Shown here: positions 36,532 through 63,468 of the stretch, piece by piece
How the letters are laid out: the number at the start of each line of letters is the position of its first letter
Numbering within the stretch: the first letter of the stretch is position 1
Translations under genes and position numbers: made by a program
Notes under the pieces: model-generated
Database searches by the model: none
Told to the model about the DNA's origin: nothing
What the model saw: only the letters and a program-made list of their open reading frames with translations
Virus record (IMG/VR): IMGVR_UViG_3300022468_000286
From: a virus
Lineage: Duplodnaviria > Heunggongvirae > Uroviricota > Caudoviricetes
Strand: one strand, 5' to 3'
Length of the DNA stretch: 64,000 nt

Positions 36532-36618
36532 TGGTGCAACAGGTGAGATTCGAACTCACGGTGGGATTTCTCCACTGGCTTATGAGGCCAGAGCCTGCAA
36601 CCGCACGGCGTCTGTTGC
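36532..36618 (-). tRNA. Type II (long variable arm) tRNA with anticodon CAU and discriminator A
   Basis: 87 nt read by hand. It has the acceptor GCAACAG/CTGTTGC, a 3-bp D-stem, anticodon stem CTGGC/GCCAG with loop CU-CAU-AA, a ~15-nt variable arm, T-arm GTGAG-TTCGAAT-CTCAC and an encoded ACCA. Position 8 is A. Confidence 0.6.
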
Positions 36619-36659
36619 ATGTGTGTATTGTATGACAGCACCTAAGCACTGTCAAGACA

Positions 36660-53882: not shown

Positions 53883-54050
53883 TTAACTCCTTTTTGGTTG
53901 AAATAAAGCACAGGTATTTGTTTGCTTAAGTTGTTTCGATAGAGCGTATTGTACGCCTTTTTGGAAGGCTGTCAACACTTGTTCTTTGTGTGGTGTATTT
54001 GCAACACTATCCAAGATAGCTTGCTTTTCTTTATGTGTAAATTTAATCAT
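53883..54050 (-). CDS. Small hypothetical protein (55 aa, not in ORF track)
   Basis: ATG with RBS gagg, encoding MIKFTHKEKQAILDSVANTPHKEQVLTAFQKGVQYALSKQ... Confidence 0.25.
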   Translation of the reverse strand: MIKFTHKEKQAILDSVANTPHKEQVLTAFQKGVQYALSKQLKQTNTCALFQPKRS

Positions 54051-54057
54051 ATAGACC

Positions 54058-54630
54058 TCAATAGTTCATAGCATCTGCAAGATTCACAAAGAAGTGAATA
54101 CCAGATTCACACTGTCTTTGATTAAAAGAAAAACCATCCTCTGGCGCTACAGAAGTACCAGTAATGTACTGAAATGTATAGTCAAAGCCAGATATAGTTT
54201 TATTCACTTCTTTGTAAAGTTCAGTCTCAAACGCACCGGGACCTGTACCGTCATACATGTGAAATCTTTGACCAACAAGAAACTGTTTATGCACAATAGC
54301 TTCTGATGCACGCATCTTCCGATAATCAATGGAGTCCCGATAATTATTTGAGGCGTAAACAACTGCCCCCTTGGGGATCAGTAAAGCAACAATACAGCGT
54401 TCCATATGTGCGATAGAATTTGTGCGCTTCCAAACTTTAATATCGTTAGTAAGTTTGAAAAAATCCTTCCTATGTGCCTTAACAGAATTCTGCTTGATGT
54501 ATGCCACACATTCTTGCAATGAAAGACATTGAGTTCGGATGATGTTTTTAGACATATTACTCCTTTGACTTGTTAATTGACTTAGCCTTGATTTTAGCTT
54601 GTTCTGTAGCTTCGTCAAGTACTTCTTCAA
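54058..54630 (-). CDS. Hypothetical protein
   Basis: 190 aa. Confidence 0.3.
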   Translation of the reverse strand: MKKYLTKLQNKLKSRLSQLTSQRSNMSKNIIRTQCLSLQECVAYIKQNSVKAHRKDFFKLTNDIKVWKRTNSIAHMERCIVALLIPKGAVVYASNNYRDSIDYRKMRASEAIVHKQFLVGQRFHMYDGTGPGAFETELYKEVNKTISGFDYTFQYITGTSVAPEDGFSFNQRQCESGIHFFVNLADAMNY

Positions 54631-54958
54631 GTTTAATTTCTACAATCTTTCCAAGTTTCTTTGCAGAATCAGAGGTCACAGCCATCTGTCCGACATAAGC
54701 ACCAGCCATCATCCAACCTGTTTTAGAGGTAGGGACAATCGCTGACAGTATTGTAGCCAGAATCAGGACAGGGACTACTCGAAATAGCCACTTCTTCACC
54801 ACAGCGTGGGCATTTGCGTCAGTTCGAGAGTCAAAAGTCACAACAGTAGCAGCAAGAAGAAGTGCAGAAAGAATTGAACTGATAGTAATAAACCCATTCA
54901 ATACAGCATGAATACCCGAGAGAGTCGAGATAAGCCAAACAATCAATGCTAATTCCAT
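54557..54958 (-). CDS. Membrane protein (multi-TMD)
   Basis: 133 aa hydrophobic. Its leader is aacaaacaaaggag. Confidence 0.35.
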   Translation of the reverse strand: MELALIVWLISTLSGIHAVLNGFITISSILSALLLAATVVTFDSRTDANAHAVVKKWLFRVVPVLILATILSAIVPTSKTGWMMAGAYVGQMAVTSDSAKKLGKIVEIKLEEVLDEATEQAKIKAKSINKSKE

Positions 54959-54982
54959 TATAACTCCTTTGTTTGTTCTCTG

Positions 54983-55399
54983 TTACTTCTTGAAAATATT
55001 TTCGGAACCTACTTCGCGGATTTCTTGGATTTGACTTTTCACATGATATTCTCCTAGATTCCCAAAATAAACCTTGTTCTCTGTCTCTTTTTTCACAACC
55101 CTAAGAACACCTTCAGGGAAGCCGGAACTATAGATTACTACAGTTTTGCCTTCAAGTGTAGGGGTAAACGGACGAACTACTGCACCTTCAATCTTAGGCT
55201 CAGAGAAGAATAGTGTACGAGGGAAAGAGGCATATCGCTTCCCATCTTTTGTGAAAGTATCCTGCCCGCGAGTTACGCCAAACGTAACTCGAACAGGGAA
55301 ATCACAGTCCATCTTGTTAGCAACATCCGTTACAAGACCCTTGCCGTAAATAACATCCCAGACCACATCACCGACTTGAAATTCGCTTGCTTTTTCCAT
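54983..55399 (-). CDS. Hypothetical protein
   Basis: 138 aa. Confidence 0.3.
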   Translation of the reverse strand: MEKASEFQVGDVVWDVIYGKGLVTDVANKMDCDFPVRVTFGVTRGQDTFTKDGKRYASFPRTLFFSEPKIEGAVVRPFTPTLEGKTVVIYSSGFPEGVLRVVKKETENKVYFGNLGEYHVKSQIQEIREVGSENIFKK

Positions 55400-55423
55400 G
55401 ATAACTCCTTTGTTTTTTTAAAT

Positions 55424-55621
55424 TTAGAAACTGTAACTGTAACGGTATACTGTTTCTTTACAATGCTGCTCAGGGCACTTGACGGATAGGAAATCGCCGT
55501 CACGATGATCTGTGTTGTATTTATACTCTTCAAACGAAAGAGTAAATACACAACCACATGACTTGCAGGTTTCAGTATACACTTTTGCAAGCTTAGGTGC
55601 CCCGGCTCGGATAATTCGCAT
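55424..55621 (-). CDS. Small Zn-ribbon protein
   Basis: 65 aa with CKSCGC...KCPEQHC. It is the first gene after promoter 55631..55682. Confidence 0.35.
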   Translation of the reverse strand: MRIIRAGAPKLAKVYTETCKSCGCVFTLSFEEYKYNTDHRDGDFLSVKCPEQHCKETVYRYSYSF

Positions 55622-55630
55622 AACTTCTCC

Positions 55631-55682
55631 TTCGTTTGTTTGTTGATGGGTGAATTGTACCTATTCTTCTGAAGAAGTCAAG
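55631..55682 (-). promoter_or_regulatory. Sigma70-type promoter TTGACT-N17-TACAAT with conserved leader (minus strand)
   Basis: The minus-strand read is ttgact-tcttcagaagaataggg-TACAAT-tcacccatcaacaaacaaacgaaggag. Confidence 0.55.
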
Positions 55683-55700
55683 ACTTCCTTCCTACAATTC

Positions 55701-56069
55701 CTACACTTCTTTGGTGAAGGTACAGTCTGCATCATACCATTTCTTGGTCCCATTCTTGAAGTGAACAACTGTCTCATATCCCTCTTGCATCCAACGACTG
55801 GGCCACTTTCGGTTAGATTTTACACCAAGGATTTCACCATAGACCATAGGGACTTTATCGCCGCTGCTATATGCACTGTACCAACGATCACCGCAGCACG
55901 GGCAGTCCCTCATAGACTGGCACCCGTCGAAATAAATACCAATCTCTTCCGCTATTTCGTCTGCCACCCTTGCGCTGTCGGCTTCGATTACAACGTGATG
56001 TGTAATGCCAGCATCTTCGTCAAAGATGAAAGAGCCGCCGGAATTATTTTGTGAATAACGATAGAACAT
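55701..56069 (-). CDS. Hypothetical Cys-containing protein
   Basis: 122 aa. Confidence 0.3.
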   Translation of the reverse strand: MFYRYSQNNSGGSFIFDEDAGITHHVVIEADSARVADEIAEEIGIYFDGCQSMRDCPCCGDRWYSAYSSGDKVPMVYGEILGVKSNRKWPSRWMQEGYETVVHFKNGTKKWYDADCTFTKEV

Positions 56070-56088
56070 ATTTTCTCCTTATTGTTTA

Positions 56089-56472
56089 TTAAGACTTGAT
56101 TTTATTATTTTTCTTGATCTCTTGGATCATCCAGTCCAACCAAGCCTGACGAGTACGTTGAAGCTTACGTTGGTTTTCCTTATTCTTCCAGAAATTCGTA
56201 TCACCATCCCACTTGTCAACACCGCGAACGTAAACATTCACCCAAGTCTTCAATGAGAATTGCGAGGTAAGAAGTTCATTAATCCAATTTTTAAGCGCAA
56301 ACTTAACCATCCTAAATTCCCAATCTGAATAGATGTTTGAAATGTTATCGCAGATGTGGGGAGAGACAGTCCGCTCGTGATCTTCAGGGAGGCGCTTTTT
56401 GACTTCCTTCAGGATTCGGATTGCTTCGATTGCCAGACTCTTATACTTGAATTTCATGGTATGCTCCTTCAC
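56089..56472 (-). CDS. Hypothetical protein
   Basis: 127 aa. Confidence 0.3.
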   Translation of the reverse strand: MKEHTMKFKYKSLAIEAIRILKEVKKRLPEDHERTVSPHICDNISNIYSDWEFRMVKFALKNWINELLTSQFSLKTWVNVYVRGVDKWDGDTNFWKNKENQRKLQRTRQAWLDWMIQEIKKNNKIKS

Positions 56473-56657
56473 TTTGTAACGACGATTTCAGCTTGAATGC
56501 AGGTAGCTTTTACTTGTGTACCGTTCTTAAACGGCAGATTGTTCAGGACATGCTCGCACGTCTGTTGTGTCTTGAAGTGCCCTACTACCGTTGTAGTACC
56601 AATACTGCCGTACCCGTAGCTGACCGAAATCAGCATCCACACCATGACTGTATTCAT
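56469..56657 (-). CDS. Small hydrophobic/secreted protein
   Basis: 62 aa. Confidence 0.25.
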   Translation of the reverse strand: MNTVMVWMLISVSYGYGSIGTTTVVGHFKTQQTCEHVLNNLPFKNGTQVKATCIQAEIVVTK

Positions 56658-56860
56658 TTAACTACCCTTCTCTGAAAGTTATTGCAATAATCCTTCAAAA
56701 CACCGAAGAATACACCATTTTGCTTGTCACTCCAATTCTTCGTACAAGTCATCCAAGGGTATCCATGAATGACACCACTCTGAGAGTGCTTGCAGTCTTC
56801 GCACTTACGTCCATTGGATAAGTCCTTGGTACCACAGCCTGAAAGGATTTCTCTTTTCAT
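56654..56860 (-). CDS. Small Cys-rich protein
   Basis: 68 aa. Confidence 0.25.
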   Translation of the reverse strand: MKREILSGCGTKDLSNGRKCEDCKHSQSGVIHGYPWMTCTKNWSDKQNGVFFGVLKDYCNNFQRRVVK

Positions 56861-57064
56861 TTATTCTCCCGTTAGTTTTTTCATCGGTTCAGCGAAGTGC
56901 TGAAAGACGGATTCTACAAAATTACATTCAAATTCGTCAAGCTCTCGAATTTTATAGTCAAAGTCCCGAGTCTCTTGCTGCCGAGGTTCACTGTACCACA
57001 GTTGCCAGTTATCAGAAGACGATCTTACAAGGTAATGCCGAGAATTCTTCAGATAGACCTTCAT
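56861..57064 (-). CDS. Small hypothetical protein (first gene of promoter-proximal operon)
   Basis: 67 aa with RBS aaaggag. Confidence 0.3.
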   Translation of the reverse strand: MKVYLKNSRHYLVRSSSDNWQLWYSEPRQQETRDFDYKIRELDEFECNFVESVFQHFAEPMKKLTGE

Positions 57065-57070
57065 GGTTTA

Positions 57071-57120
57071 CTCCTTTGTTTGTTGATGGGTGAATTGTAG
57101 CGCATGCATCGTGCATGTCA
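57071..57120 (-). promoter_or_regulatory. Consensus sigma70 promoter TTGACA-N16-TACAAT with conserved leader (minus strand)
   Basis: The minus-strand read is TTGACA-tgcacgatgcatgcgc-TACAAT-tcacccatcaacaaacaaaggag. It is near-identical to 55631..55682. Confidence 0.6.
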
Positions 57121-57324
57121 AGACGTTCGCATCGCCCTTGGTGCTACCAGTACTGTACTAAAGTATTCTATTGGAACTACTTATGTAGTTATATTTATCA
57201 ATGTAGTTTGTATAGAAAGACCAATGAAGTATTATTTAGTGTACTACTGTAGAATTCTAAGGATTGCCTTCGGATTGTACTGCTCTTGAAAATTCTTGTC
57301 AAGCTTTATTTTTGTGCCAAAGAC

Positions 57325-57352
57325 TTGCGCTGTGCCTTCGTTGTGCTACAAT
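57325..57352 (+). promoter_or_regulatory. Candidate + strand promoter TTGCGC-N16-TACAAT
   Basis: ttgcgctgtgccttcgttgtgctacaat. The -10 context gctacaattca is shared with the minus-strand promoters. Confidence 0.35.
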
Positions 57353-57733: not shown

Positions 57734-57907
57734 ATGAATACATTTACAGAAATTCAGGTCAAGAAACTTCTAGAATCCAGACACAAGACGGAAGACGGTA
57801 AGCCGATAGATCAGGTTTGGTTCACCAGAAAAGAAGTTCTAAAAATCCTTGACAACGCTCAAAAAGAATTGCAAAATACCACATCAAACAACATAAGGAG
57901 TAAATCA
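57734..57907 (+). CDS. Small hypothetical protein (57 aa)
   Basis: ORF MNTFTEIQVKKLLESRHKTEDGKPIDQVWF... Confidence 0.2.
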
Positions 57908-58080
57908 TGAGTTTTATTATTTTGATTATTTTGCTGGTGCTTTACTTTGTGCCAAGCATCGTAGGCTACAGCCGTAACCACAAGCAGACTACACCAATCC
58001 TGCTGCTGAACATCTTCCTCGGATGGACTGCACTGGGATGGGTTGCAGCACTGGTGTGGGCCAGCATGAAGCAAGACTAA
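57907..58080 (+). CDS. Superinfection immunity (Imm-like) small membrane protein
   Basis: 57 aa, MSFIILIILLVLYFVPSIVGYSRNHKQTTPILLLNIFLGWTALGWVAALVWA. This matches the LGWT..GW..AL.WA Imm_superinfect pattern. Confidence 0.45.
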   Translation: MSFIILIILLVLYFVPSIVGYSRNHKQTTPILLLNIFLGWTALGWVAALVWASMKQD

Positions 58081-60005: not shown

Positions 60006-60176
60006 GAACACTGAAGCAGTCTGATCCGGCAGATGCTGGAGGCGCTAAAACAGCAGGGTGCTACCCACCATCATCTCAAGCAGCAATCACAGCAGCAAAT
60101 AAACGCCTGAACCCTTGACAGGCTCTGTAGGAAGCTTATAATTCCTTCATCAACAGCAACAACGCAGGAGTTTTAT

Positions 60177-60434
60177 ATGTGGACTAATCATTTCAGGAAC
60201 ACTGGTGAATTCATCGAAAAGGACCATGAGCACTCTTTCACTTACCGCAAGACTGATGATTTCTGGGCAGTCTCTAATGGATTGATTCATGAGATTGATG
60301 TTTATGATGGTATTCGCTTTGGTGTTGTGAAAAAGACTGTAGCGTATGTCTGCACTGACGAGGATGACAACGGCAAACCTGTACTCAACAAGTGGCAGAT
60401 CAAGAAGCACAATATTTATCCTAAAAAGCACTAA
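60177..60434 (+). CDS. Hypothetical protein
   Basis: 85 aa. Confidence 0.3.
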   Translation: MWTNHFRNTGEFIEKDHEHSFTYRKTDDFWAVSNGLIHEIDVYDGIRFGVVKKTVAYVCTDEDDNGKPVLNKWQIKKHNIYPKKH

Positions 60435-60439
60435 AAGTC

Positions 60440-60700
60440 TTGAACAGATTCCTAGAGACTGTACAATCCCTCTATCAACAGCAAAACAGGAATTTTATGA
60501 AGATCACTTGGACACGCTCTTGGCAGAATGAATCATGGGAATATCTCTCTAGCAATGGTGCTAGGGTTTATCGCTATGAAAAGAAGCCTTTCTGCCAAGA
60601 GTGGGGAGTTCAGCTTCCTACATGGAAGACCGGCGACGGTGGTTTTCGTTCGATGAAAGAGGCAAAGGAGTTTGTTCGGAAACTAGCGGAAGAATCCTAA
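60440..60700 (+). CDS. Hypothetical protein
   Basis: 86 aa. Confidence 0.3.
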   Translation: MNRFLETVQSLYQQQNRNFMKITWTRSWQNESWEYLSSNGARVYRYEKKPFCQEWGVQLPTWKTGDGGFRSMKEAKEFVRKLAEES

Positions 60701-60765: not shown

Positions 60766-61236
60766 GTGAAAACTGTGAAGCTTGTAACTTGCATTCGCGG
60801 CATTGACTCTGTAAACGCAGATAAAAATGACTGCACAGTTCGTGCGTGGGCTAATCATTTCAATGTCTCTTACCAAGAGGCATATGAATTCTTGAAGTAT
60901 AATGGCAGGAAGGATGGCAAAGGAATGTCTGCAGATGACCTTGAAAGGCTCTATAGGAGCAACGGAGTTCCTTTGTATGCTGTTGGTACTACTCAGCAAG
61001 CTAACCGTCTGCATTACATTCTGCGCCGTCCTAGAATGAAGGGTTGTACACTGGAAAATCTCCTGAAGCGTAAGGAGTTCCAGACGGGCTTGCATTCCGT
61101 TCTGGTGAAGAATCATATCATTGCCATAAAGGATGGAAAGTGCATTGACAAGGTGAATTACTTGCGTGCAGGCACTCGCGTTACTGGGATTTTTACAACT
61201 GCACAAATCCAAGAAGTCTTGACTATATTTTCCTGA
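60766..61236 (+). CDS. Hypothetical protein (probable GTG start)
   Basis: ORF-track 60601..61236 overlaps the previous gene. A GTG at 60766 follows an aaagga RBS. Confidence 0.25.
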   Translation: MKTVKLVTCIRGIDSVNADKNDCTVRAWANHFNVSYQEAYEFLKYNGRKDGKGMSADDLERLYRSNGVPLYAVGTTQQANRLHYILRRPRMKGCTLENLLKRKEFQTGLHSVLVKNHIIAIKDGKCIDKVNYLRAGTRVTGIFTTAQIQEVLTIFS

Positions 61237-61273
61237 GTAGTATAATTCCCTCATTAACAAACGGAGAAATTTT

Positions 61274-61534
61274 ATGCAAAATGCCAAGAGTATTTCGAAA
61301 TTTGAACAACTCGTTAAGCTAGAGTGGACTGCTTCCCGTGCCCTGAACAGCATCAAGGCTTGGGCTGATGCTGATACAAAGAAGGAACTTCAGCAAGCAG
61401 AGTACATTCTGAACTGCGTTCGTGCTGCTGGGCAATTCATGCTGGATGAAAGCATTCCAGAAGAGGATAAGAGGCAGATTATGCAAGACTTGGCTGAAAA
61501 TCTCTATGGAAATGTTTTTGGGACTTTTCTGTAG
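61274..61534 (+). CDS. Hypothetical protein
   Basis: 86 aa. Confidence 0.3.
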   Translation: MQNAKSISKFEQLVKLEWTASRALNSIKAWADADTKKELQQAEYILNCVRAAGQFMLDESIPEEDKRQIMQDLAENLYGNVFGTFL

Positions 61535-62511: not shown

Positions 62512-62626
62512 CCTAGAAATCCGCGTCAGGGCCTGCTGGAATTAAAAAGCCGTGTCGGGTCTTGACCCAAAAATCCACTTTGGGTATTGCTAGATAAGAA
62601 TGCTAAGGATAGGCTGCGACCGGGCA

Positions 62627-62760
62627 GTCACGAATTGAACGTATGAGTCGTGACTGACTAGTATGAGTCACGAATTGAACGTATGAGTCGTGACTGACTA
62701 GTATGAGTCACGAATTGAACGTATGAGTCGTGACTGACTAGTATGAGTCACGAATTGAGT
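62627..62760. repeat. Tandem direct repeat, 40-bp unit x 3.35 (iteron-like) with internal inverted repeats
   Basis: The unit gtcacgaattgaacgtatgagtcgtgactgactagtatga is repeated perfectly. It contains the palindrome arms GTCACGA/TCGTGAC. Confidence 0.9.
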
Positions 62761-63112
62761 GCAGAAGTTATAACCTGGCCGTATTAGTAATATCGGGAAC
62801 GATTCAGTCATAGATTATACCTTGGAGTTTGATTTTAATCTATCTAAGTCACAAAGCAGGCGATAAGGTATTTTCTTAAACGCATGAGTTATGGTGTAGA
62901 CTCTGCAGTCACGGAATTACTGTAGAGTAGTTTCTTAAACGCTATGGTAATAATTTATACTGGCATGTTTTCTGCTTTACAGTAAATCTGGAGTGTTGTT
63001 TTATTGTCAATCCCCAGCAAGGCCGTTTTTAGCCCTTTTGAGCGATTCTAGGTGCTACCCTTCACCCATGCACCTAGAAAAGTTTTCCCGCGATTGTGCG
63101 GCTTTTCACAGC

Positions 63113-63121
63113 TTATCCACA
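63113..63121 (+). promoter_or_regulatory. DnaA box (TTATCCACA), copy 1
   Basis: Exact 9-mer consensus. Confidence 0.4.
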
Positions 63122-63146
63122 ACAGTTTTCATAGGGGAAATACAAC

Positions 63147-63155
63147 TTATCCACA
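63147..63155 (+). promoter_or_regulatory. DnaA box (TTATCCACA), copy 2, same orientation 34 bp downstream
   Basis: Exact 9-mer consensus. Confidence 0.4.
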
Positions 63156-63468
63156 ACCCTGATTCTGGTGCTTAAAATTTAAGCATAGACAAAGCTGGCA
63201 TGGCTTTTGCTACGCGTGCGCATGTTATGTAATAGGAAAGCAGAGCAATGGAGGGGAAAATACTGTATGCAAACACATTAGGGTTTCTCCCTAGCATTAT
63301 TTTCGTTTGTGGTATCAGAACAACACTTTTATCTATAGAATTCATTCCATCGCAAGCAAAAGGGTTCCTTCTACCGATACTAGAAGGACGCAAGGGAACA
63401 AGATGGTCAACTGCCCAGCAAGCGATAAAAGTGTGATAGAATCAAGGCTTAGAAACTAGGAAACGAAA

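What the first reader, a model, noticed from the sequence alone, without database searches (positions are those of the whole stretch)
55631..57352. Family of near-identical consensus promoters with shared -10/+1/leader block (GCTACAATTCACCCATCAACAAACAAAGGAG)
Two minus-strand promoters (TTGACA-N16-TACAAT at 57071..57120 and TTGACT-N17-TACAAT at 55631..55682) share an identical 29-nt block covering the -10 element, the start region TCACCC and an A/C-rich leader ending in the RBS. A + strand promoter at 57325..57352 shares gctacaattca. A degenerate copy, gctacccttcacccatg, lies at 63054..63070 next to the DnaA boxes. Conservation beyond the -10 hexamer suggests a regulatory target, such as a phage or host factor binding site or a translational control element, rather than simply strong sigma70 promoters.
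Basis: seen in the sequence. Interest (0 to 1): 0.5.

Follow-up and report, generated by a model that had tools for sequence, protein, structure and literature searches.

The report
Phage early promoter–leader cassette family
A phage carries a small family of strong host-type early promoters that also share their start site and a short A/C-rich mRNA leader; this is a real and conserved feature, but an ordinary kind of phage expression signal and not evidence of a new regulator.

Summary
Promoters at 57121-57071(-) and 55681-55627(-) share 25 identical nt (TACAATTCACCCATCAACAAACAAA), not 29, and both spacers are 16 nt. The + strand promoter at 57325 and the "degenerate copy" at 63054 are not members. 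The core YCNNNYATYAACARM occurs 5 times against 0.22 expected, each time directly after a -10 and facing a called small gene. The block breaks down into a -10, a C-rich discriminator, a YA(+1)TC start, a G-free A/C-rich leader with ACA motifs, and the phage's general AAAGGAG ribosome-binding site. Orthologous promoters in metagenomic relatives keep these parts while the spacer sequence diverges, so the block is under selection. The same promoter-leader heads different first genes in different relatives. Two small genes next to such leaders are present or absent between relatives, bounded by leader-like repeats. I found no dyad symmetry, hairpin, Rfam match or candidate binding protein. Best reading: sigma70-type early promoter plus translation-enhancing leader cassettes. 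They behave like T4-type PeSLs but lack the defining stem-loop. The window comes from a Felix O1-related phage.

The parts
57062..57121 (-). P1 promoter-leader unit. -35 TTGACA 57121-57116; 16-nt spacer; -10 TACAAT 57099-57094; discriminator TCACCC 57093-57088; predicted +1 A at 57087; leader AUCAACAAACAAA; SD GGAG 57074-57071; ATG 57064. It drives the 67-aa ORFan 56861-57064.
   Evidence: 27.0 bits. The gene was called independently in L005. The leader is unpaired in the MFE fold. Orthologues are in L278 and L280.
55619..55681 (-). P2 promoter-leader unit. -35 TTGACT 55681-55676; 16-nt spacer; -10 TACAAT 55659-55654; TCACCC; predicted +1 A at 55647; leader AUCAACAAACAAACGAA; GGAG 55630-55627; ATG 55621. 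It drives the 65-aa ORFan 55424-55621.
   Evidence: 27.0 bits. The orthologue in L007 has a diverged spacer and a conserved block. The orthologous gene in L008 has the same architecture.
60115..60179 (+). P3 unit. TTGACA-N16-TATAAT (60137-60142); TCCTTC; +1 A at 60149; leader AUCAACAGCAACAACGCA; GGAG 60167-60170; ATG 60177 (85-aa gene 60177-60434).
   Evidence: 12/12 match; D1; 23.9 bits.
60440..60499 (+). P5 unit. TTGAAC-N16-TACAAT (60462-60467); CCCTCT; +1 A at 60474; leader AUCAACAGCAAAACA; GGA; ATG 60497 (67-aa gene 60497-60700).
   Evidence: D1; 22.3 bits.
61219..61276 (+). P4 unit. TTGACT-N16-TATAAT (61241-61246); TCCCTC; +1 A at 61253; leader AUUAACAAAC; GGAG 61263-61266; ATG 61274 (86-aa gene 61274-61534). 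The -35 overlaps the 3' end of the upstream gene.
   Evidence: D1; 22.5 bits.
57849..57909 (+). Weaker relative of the family. TTGACA-N17-CAAAAT-ACCA-CATCAAACAACATAAGGAG-N6-ATG, driving the 57-aa Imm_superinfect gene 57907-58080. The orthologous promoter in L134 lacks that gene.
54964..54977 (-). Promoter-less copy of the leader/RBS module AACAAACAAAGGAG, upstream of gene 54557-54958.
55405..55418 (-). Promoter-less leader/RBS module AAAAAACAAAGGAG upstream of gene 54983-55399. It forms the right-hand boundary of the 65-aa gene indel relative to L007.
57325..57352 (+). Rightward promoter of the divergent pair (TTGCGC-N16-TACAAT-TCAGCATTGACTTCACTTCAGGAG).
   Evidence: A possible orthologue with a T-rich leader is in L135.
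57274..57302 (-). Leftward promoter of the divergent pair (TTGACA-N17-TACAAT-CCGAAGGCAATCC), in tandem with P1. It has a different conserved downstream block and a 17-nt spacer.
63054..63070 (+). It has no -35 and a defective -10, and is not statistically distinguishable from chance.
   Evidence: my own estimate of E about 0.14.

Best explanation
The window is part of a lytic myovirus distantly related to Felix O1-type phages. Around its divergent early control region (55.6-61.3 kb) it carries a family of host sigma70-type early promoters, each fused to a 21-28 nt leader in front of a small ORFan gene. The shared block is a stack of elements read by the host machinery, not a separate operator.

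The elements are:
(1) a -10 TAYAAT after an invariant 16-nt spacer and a tcTTGAC -35;
(2) a 6-nt C-rich discriminator whose ends are fixed (TC...C) and whose middle varies. It has C at the second position after the -10, the position where sigma region 1.2 binds worst, as in rRNA P1 promoters. This is expected to give short-lived open complexes on an otherwise near-consensus promoter;
(3) a C/T(-1) A(+1) T C start, as in T7 A1 and lambda PL;
(4) an initial transcribed sequence with no G until the SD, so it has no Y-G initiation-pause steps and should favour fast promoter escape;
(5) one or two ACA motifs in an unstructured A/C-rich stretch just 5' of the SD, which is a known translation-enhancer design;
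(6) the phage's general AAAGGAG-N5-7-ATG ribosome-binding site.

The result would be very high, immediate expression of small host-takeover or immunity genes, without any phage factor.

Because the module is repeated, it also serves as a portable joint. The same promoter-leader heads different first genes in different relatives, and small genes are gained or lost between leader-like repeats.

Shown here: the family, its positions, its conservation pattern, the unstructured leaders and the indels. Inferred: the start sites, the kinetic consequences, the enhancer activity, the early timing, and recombination at the repeats as the cause of the indels.
For: Phage identity. DNA polymerase is 64% identical to Pseudomonas phage vB_PsaM_M1, which is filed under Ounavirinae. 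The layout is typical of a phage.

Family. The core occurs 5 times against 0.22 expected, always right after a -10. The PWM separates the 5 members (22-27 bits) from the next-best site (16.5 bits). The repeat finder recovers the two sub-families without any prior. All five have 16-nt spacers, while the strong promoters without the block have 17. Each faces a gene called independently in a metagenome copy of the same phage.

Selection. The L007 orthologue of P2 matches 10/16 in the spacer but 23/25 from the -10 through the leader. L008, L278, L279, L280, L010, L011 and L134 keep TTGAC, the 16-17-nt spacing, YATC, the CAAACAA(A/C) leader and GGAG, with free spacer sequence. The proteins downstream of P1 and P2 are unrelated and the spacers are unrelated, so the identity is confined to the functional block.

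Leader. The first 13-20 nt are unpaired and z is at or above 0 for most members. AAAGGAG is the phage-wide RBS.

Literature. ACA/ACAA motifs enhance translation (PMC3879156). Y-G steps near +6 slow promoter escape (PMC5961368). -5C gives short-lived open complexes as at rRNA promoters, and strong consensus promoters can benefit from escape-favouring discriminators (PMC10911233).

Modularity. The 65-aa gene is absent from L007, and its boundaries are ACAAA(C)GAAGGAG and ACAAAGGAG. In L008 it lies on the other side of the DUF7296 gene. The Imm_superinfect gene is absent from L134 behind the orthologous promoter. The conserved head promoter-leader precedes four different first genes in the relatives.

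An unrelated 364-kb phage contig has an analogous multi-copy family.
Against: No transcription start site, timing or expression data exist for this phage, so promoter activity and the +1 positions are predictions. The host is unknown, and all kinetic arguments are borrowed from E. coli RNA polymerase.

The exact 25-nt identity of P1 and P2 is more than generic RNAP or ribosome preferences require. Window P2 also resembles window P1 more than its own L007 orthologue in the discriminator (TCACCC vs TCCTCC). This suggests gene conversion or an additional sequence-specific constraint that I could not identify.

The cross-phage recurrence of the block is only modestly supported. In viral contigs a composition-matched scrambled block was just as often preceded by a good -35 (4/54 vs 7/120, p=0.77). 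The real block was, however, more abundant (over 120 vs 54 loci) and more often followed by SD plus start (14/120 vs 1/54, p=0.025).

CA steps, which the leader contains, were mildly unfavourable for escape in two of three promoter contexts in PMC5961368.
Confidence: 0.72

Rival explanations
1. The block is a DNA operator. A phage-encoded or host protein binds TCACCCATCAACAAAC on the DNA, overlapping the start site, and switches the whole early set off (or on) together.
For: The block overlaps -6 to +13, a typical repressor position. It is conserved in orthologues beyond what hexamers explain. Some relatives encode a conserved HTH-like protein right next to the equivalent head promoter.
Against: The block has no dyad or direct-repeat operator structure (read directly from the sequences). 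The middle of the discriminator varies freely among members (TCACCC, TCCTTC, TCCCTC, CCCTCT). The HTH-like protein has no counterpart in the 64-kb window. None of the nine small early proteins scanned has a DNA-binding Pfam domain. Similar blocks occur in unrelated phages.
Confidence: 0.07
2. The block acts at the RNA level as a shared regulatory target. A translational repressor (RegA-like), an endoribonuclease (RegB- or MazF-like, ACA- or GGAG-directed), or a G/U-rich sRNA (GcvB-like) recognises the common 5' leader AUCAACAAACAAAGGAG and co-regulates the early mRNAs.
For: All members place the same single-stranded A/C-rich sequence at the extreme 5' end, next to the SD. C/A-rich and ACA enhancers are the natural targets of GcvB (PMC3879156). 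T4 early mRNAs are inactivated through their GGAG SDs by RegB (PMC1702504).
Against: RegB specificity lies 3' of GGAG (GGAGRAYARAA) with no requirement 5' of it. The sequences after GGAG here are inconsistent (UAAACCA, AAGUUAU, UUUUAUA, AAAUUUU). No complementary sequence exists elsewhere in the window. No Rfam RNA was found in 50-64 kb. No candidate protein was identified.
Confidence: 0.1
3. The similarity is only historical: a recent duplication or gene conversion of one promoter, with no function for the extra bases.
For: The discriminators of P1 and P2 are identical to each other and differ from the L007 orthologue of P2. This is the pattern expected from within-genome conversion. P3 and P5 likewise form a closer pair (D1).
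Against: Identity stops abruptly at the spacer on one side and the SD on the other, and the flanking sequences and proteins are unrelated. The block is retained in relatives whose adjacent proteins are only about 57-76% identical, while the spacer sequence turns over. This indicates purifying selection.
Confidence: 0.06
4. The main selected role of the repeated module is recombinational. Like T4-type PeSLs, the repeats are hot spots at which promoter+ORFan cassettes are excised, inserted and exchanged between co-infecting phages.
For: Two ORFan indels are bounded by leader-like repeats. One cassette is relocated in L008. One conserved promoter-leader sits in front of four different first genes in relatives. 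PeSL crossovers were mapped between the -10 and the SD/ATG (PMC2839356).
Against: The homologous stretches are short: 6-14 nt at the indel borders and 25 nt at most. The PeSL stem-loop and AT-rich tract are absent. Only two indels were seen, and indels at gene boundaries are expected in any case. This role is compatible with the best explanation and does not replace it.
Confidence: 0.05

Closest known systems
PeSL cassettes (promoter-early stem-loop) of T4-type phages RB49/phi1, PST and nt-1 (Arbiol et al. 2010, PMC2839356; Comeau et al. 2014, PMC4122927)
   Same: Repeated, near-consensus sigma70 early promoters that extend through an SD to the start codon. They sit in front of small ORFans in a plastic early region. 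They are associated with ORFan indels between close relatives, with junctions between the -10 and the SD/ATG.
   Different: There is no stable stem-loop or terminator component (z between -1.0 and +0.6) and no AT-rich tract upstream of the -35. The conserved part here is downstream of the -10 (discriminator, start, leader), not a hairpin. The phage is not T4-like. Mini-circles were not tested.
Classical strong early promoters of coliphages (T7 A1, lambda PL, T5 N25), where the transcribed region contributes to strength (Kammerer et al. 1986, as cited in PMC10911233; ITS studies PMC5961368 and PMC12464699)
   Same: Consensus-like hexamers. The start is in a CAUC/AU context: T7 A1 starts AUCGAG and lambda PL starts AUCAGC (from my own knowledge). 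The sequence from +1 to +20 matters for escape and output.
   Different: Here the downstream sequence is shared almost verbatim among several promoters of one genome and runs straight into the RBS (leaders of only 21-28 nt). The spacer is 16 nt, not 17.
rRNA P1-type kinetically tuned promoters (Haugen et al. 2006, as summarised in PMC10911233)
   Same: Near-consensus hexamers, a 16-bp spacer (from my own knowledge of rrnB P1), C at the second position after the -10, and a C-rich discriminator.
   Different: The discriminator is 6 nt, not 8. No UP element is evident. No evidence exists for NTP or ppGpp/DksA sensing here. This is a resemblance only.
ACA / C/A-rich translational enhancers of enterobacterial mRNAs (yifK, dppA, gltI; PMC3879156)
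   Same: One or two ACA motifs in a single-stranded A/C-rich stretch immediately 5' of the SD.
   Different: In the phage the enhancer-like stretch begins at the very 5' end of the mRNA and is repeated across a promoter family. No sRNA partner is known.

Membership tests
Sigma70 (housekeeping) bacterial promoter | -35 hexamer close to TTGACA | tested here: met
   TTGACA, TTGACT, TTGACA, TTGACT and TTGAAC in P1-P5. TTGAC is invariant in 13 of 14 aligned units.
Sigma70 (housekeeping) bacterial promoter | -10 hexamer TAnnnT close to TATAAT, 16-18 bp downstream of the -35 | tested here: met
   TACAAT or TATAAT with a 16-nt spacer in all five members.
Sigma70 (housekeeping) bacterial promoter | Oriented towards and close to a gene; not scattered at random | tested here: met
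   All five lie 21-28 nt (from predicted +1) upstream of independently called genes. 7 of the 11 strict consensus promoters in the window lie in 53.9-61.3 kb.
Sigma70 (housekeeping) bacterial promoter | Transcription starts about 7 nt downstream of the -10 in vivo or in vitro | not testable with these tools
   No transcript data are available. +1 is inferred from spacing and the conserved Y(-1)A(+1).
PeSL (T4-type promoter-early stem-loop cassette) | Strong sigma70-like early promoter ending in the SD and start codon of the downstream gene | tested here: met
   Definition from PMC2839356.
PeSL (T4-type promoter-early stem-loop cassette) | Stable stem-loop (terminator/attenuator) within or next to the promoter | tested here: not met
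   Folds of -60 to +6 for five window promoters and L007 give z from -1.0 to +0.6, with only 5-6 bp spacer palindromes. No terminator-like site is adjacent.
PeSL (T4-type promoter-early stem-loop cassette) | AT-rich tract upstream of the -35 | tested here: not met
   The upstream 20-30 nt are about 35-56% G+C in a 42% G+C genome, e.g. ggtagcaccaagggcgatgcgaacgtc before P1 (sequences).
PeSL (T4-type promoter-early stem-loop cassette) | Located before ORFans in a variable region and associated with indels between related phages | tested here: met
   The driven genes have no Pfam or PHROG function except Imm_superinfect. Two indels and one relocation were seen.
PeSL (T4-type promoter-early stem-loop cassette) | Occurs in T4-type myoviruses; forms mini-circles by recombination | tested here: not met
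   The nearest cultured relative is filed under Ounavirinae (Felix O1-like). Mini-circle formation is not testable here.
ACA / C/A-rich translational enhancer | ACA motif(s) near and upstream of the SD in single-stranded RNA | tested here: met
   CAACAAACAAAGGAG (P1, P2), CAACAGCAACAACGCAGGAG (P3), UUAACAAACGGAG (P4) and CAACAGCAAAACAGGA (P5). They are unpaired in the predicted folds.
ACA / C/A-rich translational enhancer | Mutating ACA lowers translation | not testable with these tools
   This requires reporter fusions.
rRNA P1-like (short-lived open complex) promoter | Sub-optimal 16-bp spacer with near-consensus hexamers; C at the second position after the -10; C/G-rich discriminator | tested here: met
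   The spacer is 16 nt in all five. The second base after the -10 is C in all five. The discriminators are TCACCC, TCACCC, TCCTTC, TCCCTC and CCCTCT.
rRNA P1-like (short-lived open complex) promoter | Short open-complex half-life; sensitivity to initiating NTP and ppGpp/DksA | not testable with these tools
   A biochemical property. T4 early promoters showed no discriminator-linked DksA effect (PMC6024815), so caution is needed.
RegB-type early-mRNA inactivation site | [quoted passage not shown] | tested here: not met
   The sequences after GGAG are UAAACCA, AAGUUAU, UUUUAUA and AAAUUUU. The conserved block lies 5' of GGAG, where RegB needs no information (PMC1702504).

The most novel reading that the evidence does not exclude
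The promoter-leader module is a conserved, portable 'expression plug' of a Felix O1-related phage group. It acts both as the head of early transcription and as a recombination joint for swapping ORFan cargo, a stem-loop-free analogue of PeSLs outside the T4 group. The exact 5'-terminal leader sequence (AUC[A/G][A/C]AAACAA) would additionally be recognised by a still unidentified phage or host RNA-binding factor or sRNA that co-regulates all early messages.
Probability: 0.15. Interest if true: 0.5.

Novelty: new member of a known kind. Interest (0 to 1): 0.3.

Why it matters
The finding gives a clean, testable definition of the early promoter class of an uncultured phage group related to Felix O1-type viruses. 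That definition helps delimit early genes, some of which may act in host takeover or superinfection immunity, in metagenomic relatives.

It also adds a case outside the T4 group in which repeated promoter-leader modules sit at the borders of ORFan gain and loss. In addition, it provides a compact natural promoter, 5'UTR and RBS design (about 85 bp) that could be useful as an expression part.

It does not reveal a new regulatory principle.

Tried and rejected
1. Nucleotide searches of the region against 50,697 phage records, near and distant modes, gave no match.

2. Phage M1, the closest cultured relative, was fetched whole. It has essentially no TTGAC...TAYAAT promoters and no copy of the block, so it is uninformative for this region.

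3. An exact 19-mer scan of viral contigs gave one chance hit inside a coding region of a 55% G+C contig. The search for related loci with DUF7296 gave an unrelated 58% G+C phage.

4. An Rfam scan of 50-64 kb at E up to 1 gave only a spurious miRNA hit.

5. The hairpin/PeSL test was not significant. The 208-nt leader from the upstream tandem promoter is not significantly structured (z = -1.0).

6. The RegB-type site was rejected on the published consensus.

7. The block does not appear as a host chromosomal promoter type. 0 of 26 matches in 185,579 species genomes have a good -35.

8. The claim of a 'universal phage design' was weakened by the scrambled control.

9. Alignment of the 63-kb 'degenerate copy' with relatives was uninformative.

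10. A search for a counterpart of the relatives' HTH-like protein in the window found none.

11. The test for concerted evolution between P1 and P2 could not be completed.
Full report
**Context.** The 64-kb window has the layout of a tailed-phage genome. Structural genes lie on the + strand (1-16 kb). A long minus-strand block of replication and nucleotide-metabolism genes follows, with two tRNAs (16-57 kb). A strand switch occurs near 57.1-57.35 kb, followed by small + strand genes. There is no nucleotide-level relative among 50,697 phage records. The DNA polymerase is 64% identical to that of Pseudomonas phage vB_PsaM_M1, an 89-kb phage filed under Ounavirinae (Felix O1-like). The same phage occurs in a JGI metagenome, whose independent gene calls I used.

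**Checking the observation.** The two minus-strand promoters exist. P1 is TTGACA (57121-57116), N16, TACAAT (57099-57094). P2 is TTGACT (55681-55676), N16, TACAAT (55659-55654). They share 25 identical nt, TACAATTCACCCATCAACAAACAAA. P2 then has a 4-nt insertion before GGAG. The repeat finder reports the pair as 28 nt at 96% identity.

The terminal AAAGGAG is the generic Shine-Dalgarno context of dozens of genes in this phage, so it is not family-specific. AACAAACAAAGGAG also recurs before two promoter-less genes.

The + strand promoter at 57325-57352 shares only GCTACAATTCA and fails the family PWM. The 'degenerate copy' at 63054 has no -35 and a defective -10, and is compatible with chance.

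**The real family.**
- P3: 60115, TATAAT-TCCTTCATCAACAGCAACAACGCAGGAG.
- P5: 60440, TACAAT-CCCTCTATCAACAGCAAAACAGGA.
- P4: 61219, TATAAT-TCCCTCATTAACAAACGGAG.

A weaker member lies at 57849: CAAAAT-ACCA-CATCAAACAACATAAGGAG.

The pattern TAYAATYCNNNYATYAACA occurs 5 times against 0.00 expected. The block alone, YCNNNYATYAACARM, occurs 5 times against 0.22 expected, each time immediately after a -10. A PWM of the 19 nt after the -10 gives 22-27 bits for the five members. The next-best site scores 16.5 bits and has no -10.

All five have 16-nt spacers. The strong promoters without the block (57274-, 35003-, 36627-, 26661-) have 17. Each member lies 21-28 nt (from the predicted +1) upstream of an independently called small gene. 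These genes have no known function.

**Anatomy.** An alignment of 14 units from the window and its relatives shows the following:
- tcTTGAC is nearly invariant.
- The spacer is free in sequence, 16 nt long in 12 of the 14 units and 17 nt in the 57849 promoter and its L134 orthologue.
- The -10 is nAnAnT.
- The discriminator is C-rich, with fixed ends and a variable middle.
- YATC lies at the predicted start.
- The A/C-rich stretch CAAACAA(A/C) contains no G.
- GGAG and the start codon follow.

The predicted 5' leaders are unstructured. There are no significant hairpins around the promoters and no Rfam family matches.

**Relatives.** DUF7296, the cell-wall hydrolase and the 67-aa P1 gene product were used to find diverged relatives and their contigs.

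- L007 (neighbouring proteins 60-97% identical by tblastn; DUF7296 76%) has the P2 orthologue. Its spacer matches 10/16, while the -10 through the leader matches 23/25 (TCCTCC in place of TCACCC).
- In L008 the orthologue of the 65-aa gene is preceded by TTGACA-N16-TACAGT-ctagt-CATCAAATCAACCTAACCAACCAAAGGAG.
- L278 and L280 carry P1 orthologues: TTGAC(T/A)-N16-TA(C/A)AGT-N5-TATCGCAAACAACTT(T)AGGAG. The same unit is in L279, L010 and L011, but in front of different first genes.
- L134 has the orthologue of the 57849 promoter: GACAAT-ACAC-CCATCGCAACACACAAGGAG.

The block is therefore maintained by selection across a phage group, while the spacer sequence and the cargo genes turn over. The products of the P1 and P2 genes are unrelated, so the block is not a by-product of gene duplication.

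**Modularity.** The 65-aa gene behind P2 is absent from L007. The L007 sequence equals the window's left flank through CATCAACAAACAAA joined to the right flank from CAAAGGAGTTATCATG. The indel is therefore bounded by two copies of the leader/RBS repeat. In L008 the same gene lies on the other side of DUF7296. The Imm_superinfect gene (57907-58080; Pfam E = 2e-18) is absent from L134 behind the orthologous promoter. The window's right junction (ACACACTACAAGGAAAAATAAGTG) again looks like a leader.

**Mechanism.** Every conserved sub-block corresponds to something RNA polymerase or the ribosome reads.
- The second base after the -10 is C in all members. At that position G stabilises and C destabilises open complexes, and C is typical of rRNA promoters. 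Strong consensus promoters can gain from escape-favouring discriminators (PMC10911233).
- The initial transcribed sequence has no G before about +14, so it lacks the Y-G steps that most strongly slow escape (PMC5961368).
- ACA/ACAA motifs just 5' of an SD enhance translation up to 100-fold (PMC3879156).

I therefore read the block as an integrated promoter-leader design for maximal immediate expression. The start sites, kinetics and enhancer activity are inferred and were not shown here.

**Alternatives considered.**
- A DNA operator is unsupported. There is no dyad, the discriminator middle is variable, and the HTH-like protein found beside the head promoter in some relatives is absent from the window.
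- A RegB-like target is rejected, because RegB reads 3' of GGAG and those sequences are inconsistent here.
- An sRNA or translational-repressor target cannot be excluded but has no support.
- Pure recent duplication is contradicted by the sharp limits of identity and by conservation in relatives. The identical TCACCC in P1 and P2, against TCCTCC in the L007 orthologue, does hint at some gene conversion.

**Beyond this phage group.** A degenerate scan of viral contigs and a stricter scan of metagenomes found complete units (good -35, the block, an A/C-rich leader, SD, ATG) in several apparently unrelated contigs of 37-59% G+C. In the metagenome scan, 10 of 60 matches had a good -35, against about 0.8 expected. 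A 364-kb phage contig has its own multi-copy analogue. In 185,579 bacterial and archaeal species genomes, none of the 26 matches had a good -35.

A composition-matched scrambled control tempers this. It had the same fraction of good -35 sites (4/54 vs 7/120, p = 0.77). It was, however, less abundant (54 vs more than 120 loci), was rarely followed by SD plus start (1/54 vs 14/120, p = 0.025), and never formed a complete unit (0 vs 5). Convergent use of this design in other phages is plausible but only modestly supported.

**Comparison with known systems.** The closest concept is the PeSL of T4-type phages (PMC2839356, PMC4122927). PeSLs are repeated strong early promoters, running through to the SD/ATG, in front of ORFans and associated with indels. 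[quoted passage not shown] It is not a PeSL. It is best filed as another early promoter family of the known sigma70 kind, with a conserved downstream region.

**Verdict.** The feature is real, conserved and biologically sensible, but ordinary in kind. Interest is 0.3.

Noticed in passing
window 57122-57273 (esp. 57148-57249): The 150-nt AT-rich gap between the tandem minus-strand promoters (57302-57274 and P1) contains a nested imperfect palindrome (22-nt arms 73% complementary; 15-nt arms 80%) and two direct ATGTAGTT repeats. As RNA it is not significantly structured (z = -1.0). It could be a regulatory or origin-like DNA element.
   Followed up: partly
window 57274-57302 (-); L135 about 1133 (-); L137 about 7435 (-): The leftward promoter of the divergent pair has its own, different conserved post -10 block (TACAAT-CCGAAGGCAATCC). 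Recognisable orthologues are present in two relatives (TACAAT-CCTTTAGGCAATC in L135). This suggests a second promoter class with downstream conservation.
   Followed up: partly
window 53948-53975 (-): A consensus promoter (TTGACA-N16-TACAAT) lies inside the 55-aa ORF 53883-54050. Its downstream sequence ACGCTC-TATCGAAACAACTTAAG closely resembles the head promoter-leader of relatives (L278: ACGTTC-TATCGCAAACAACTTAGGAG). In L007 the hexamers are kept but the block is altered. It may be an internal promoter or a relic.
   Followed up: partly
window 62512-63247: This is an ORF-poor stretch of about 730 bp. I did not analyse it further.
   Followed up: no
L010 4382-5201; L278 70-855; L279 8720-9535: One subgroup of relatives encodes a highly conserved 111-aa HTH-like protein and a 106-aa protein between the divergent promoters and the conserved head promoter. 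Neither has a counterpart in the window. They are preceded by a conserved tttatgctat(c/g)atagca motif.
   Followed up: partly
L015 and L039 (IMGVR_UViG_3300043418_000114, 364 kb) and L118: A jumbo-phage contig carries its own multi-copy early promoter family: TTGACA-N17 (spacer conserved, aatgggtttgggta)-TATAAT-(T/A)CAYYCA(T/A)-A/C-rich-GGAG-ATG. This strikingly parallels the window's family although no close relationship is evident.
   Followed up: partly
window 57907-58080 (+): A 57-aa Imm_superinfect (PF14373) membrane protein is encoded as the first gene behind the 57849 promoter. The gene is missing at the same place in relative L134. It is a candidate superinfection-exclusion moron.
   Followed up: yes
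window 36627-36655 (-) and 36532-36618 (-): A consensus promoter (TTGACA-N17-TACAAT) sits directly upstream of tRNA-Met(cat), so the phage tRNA appears to have its own strong promoter.
   Followed up: no
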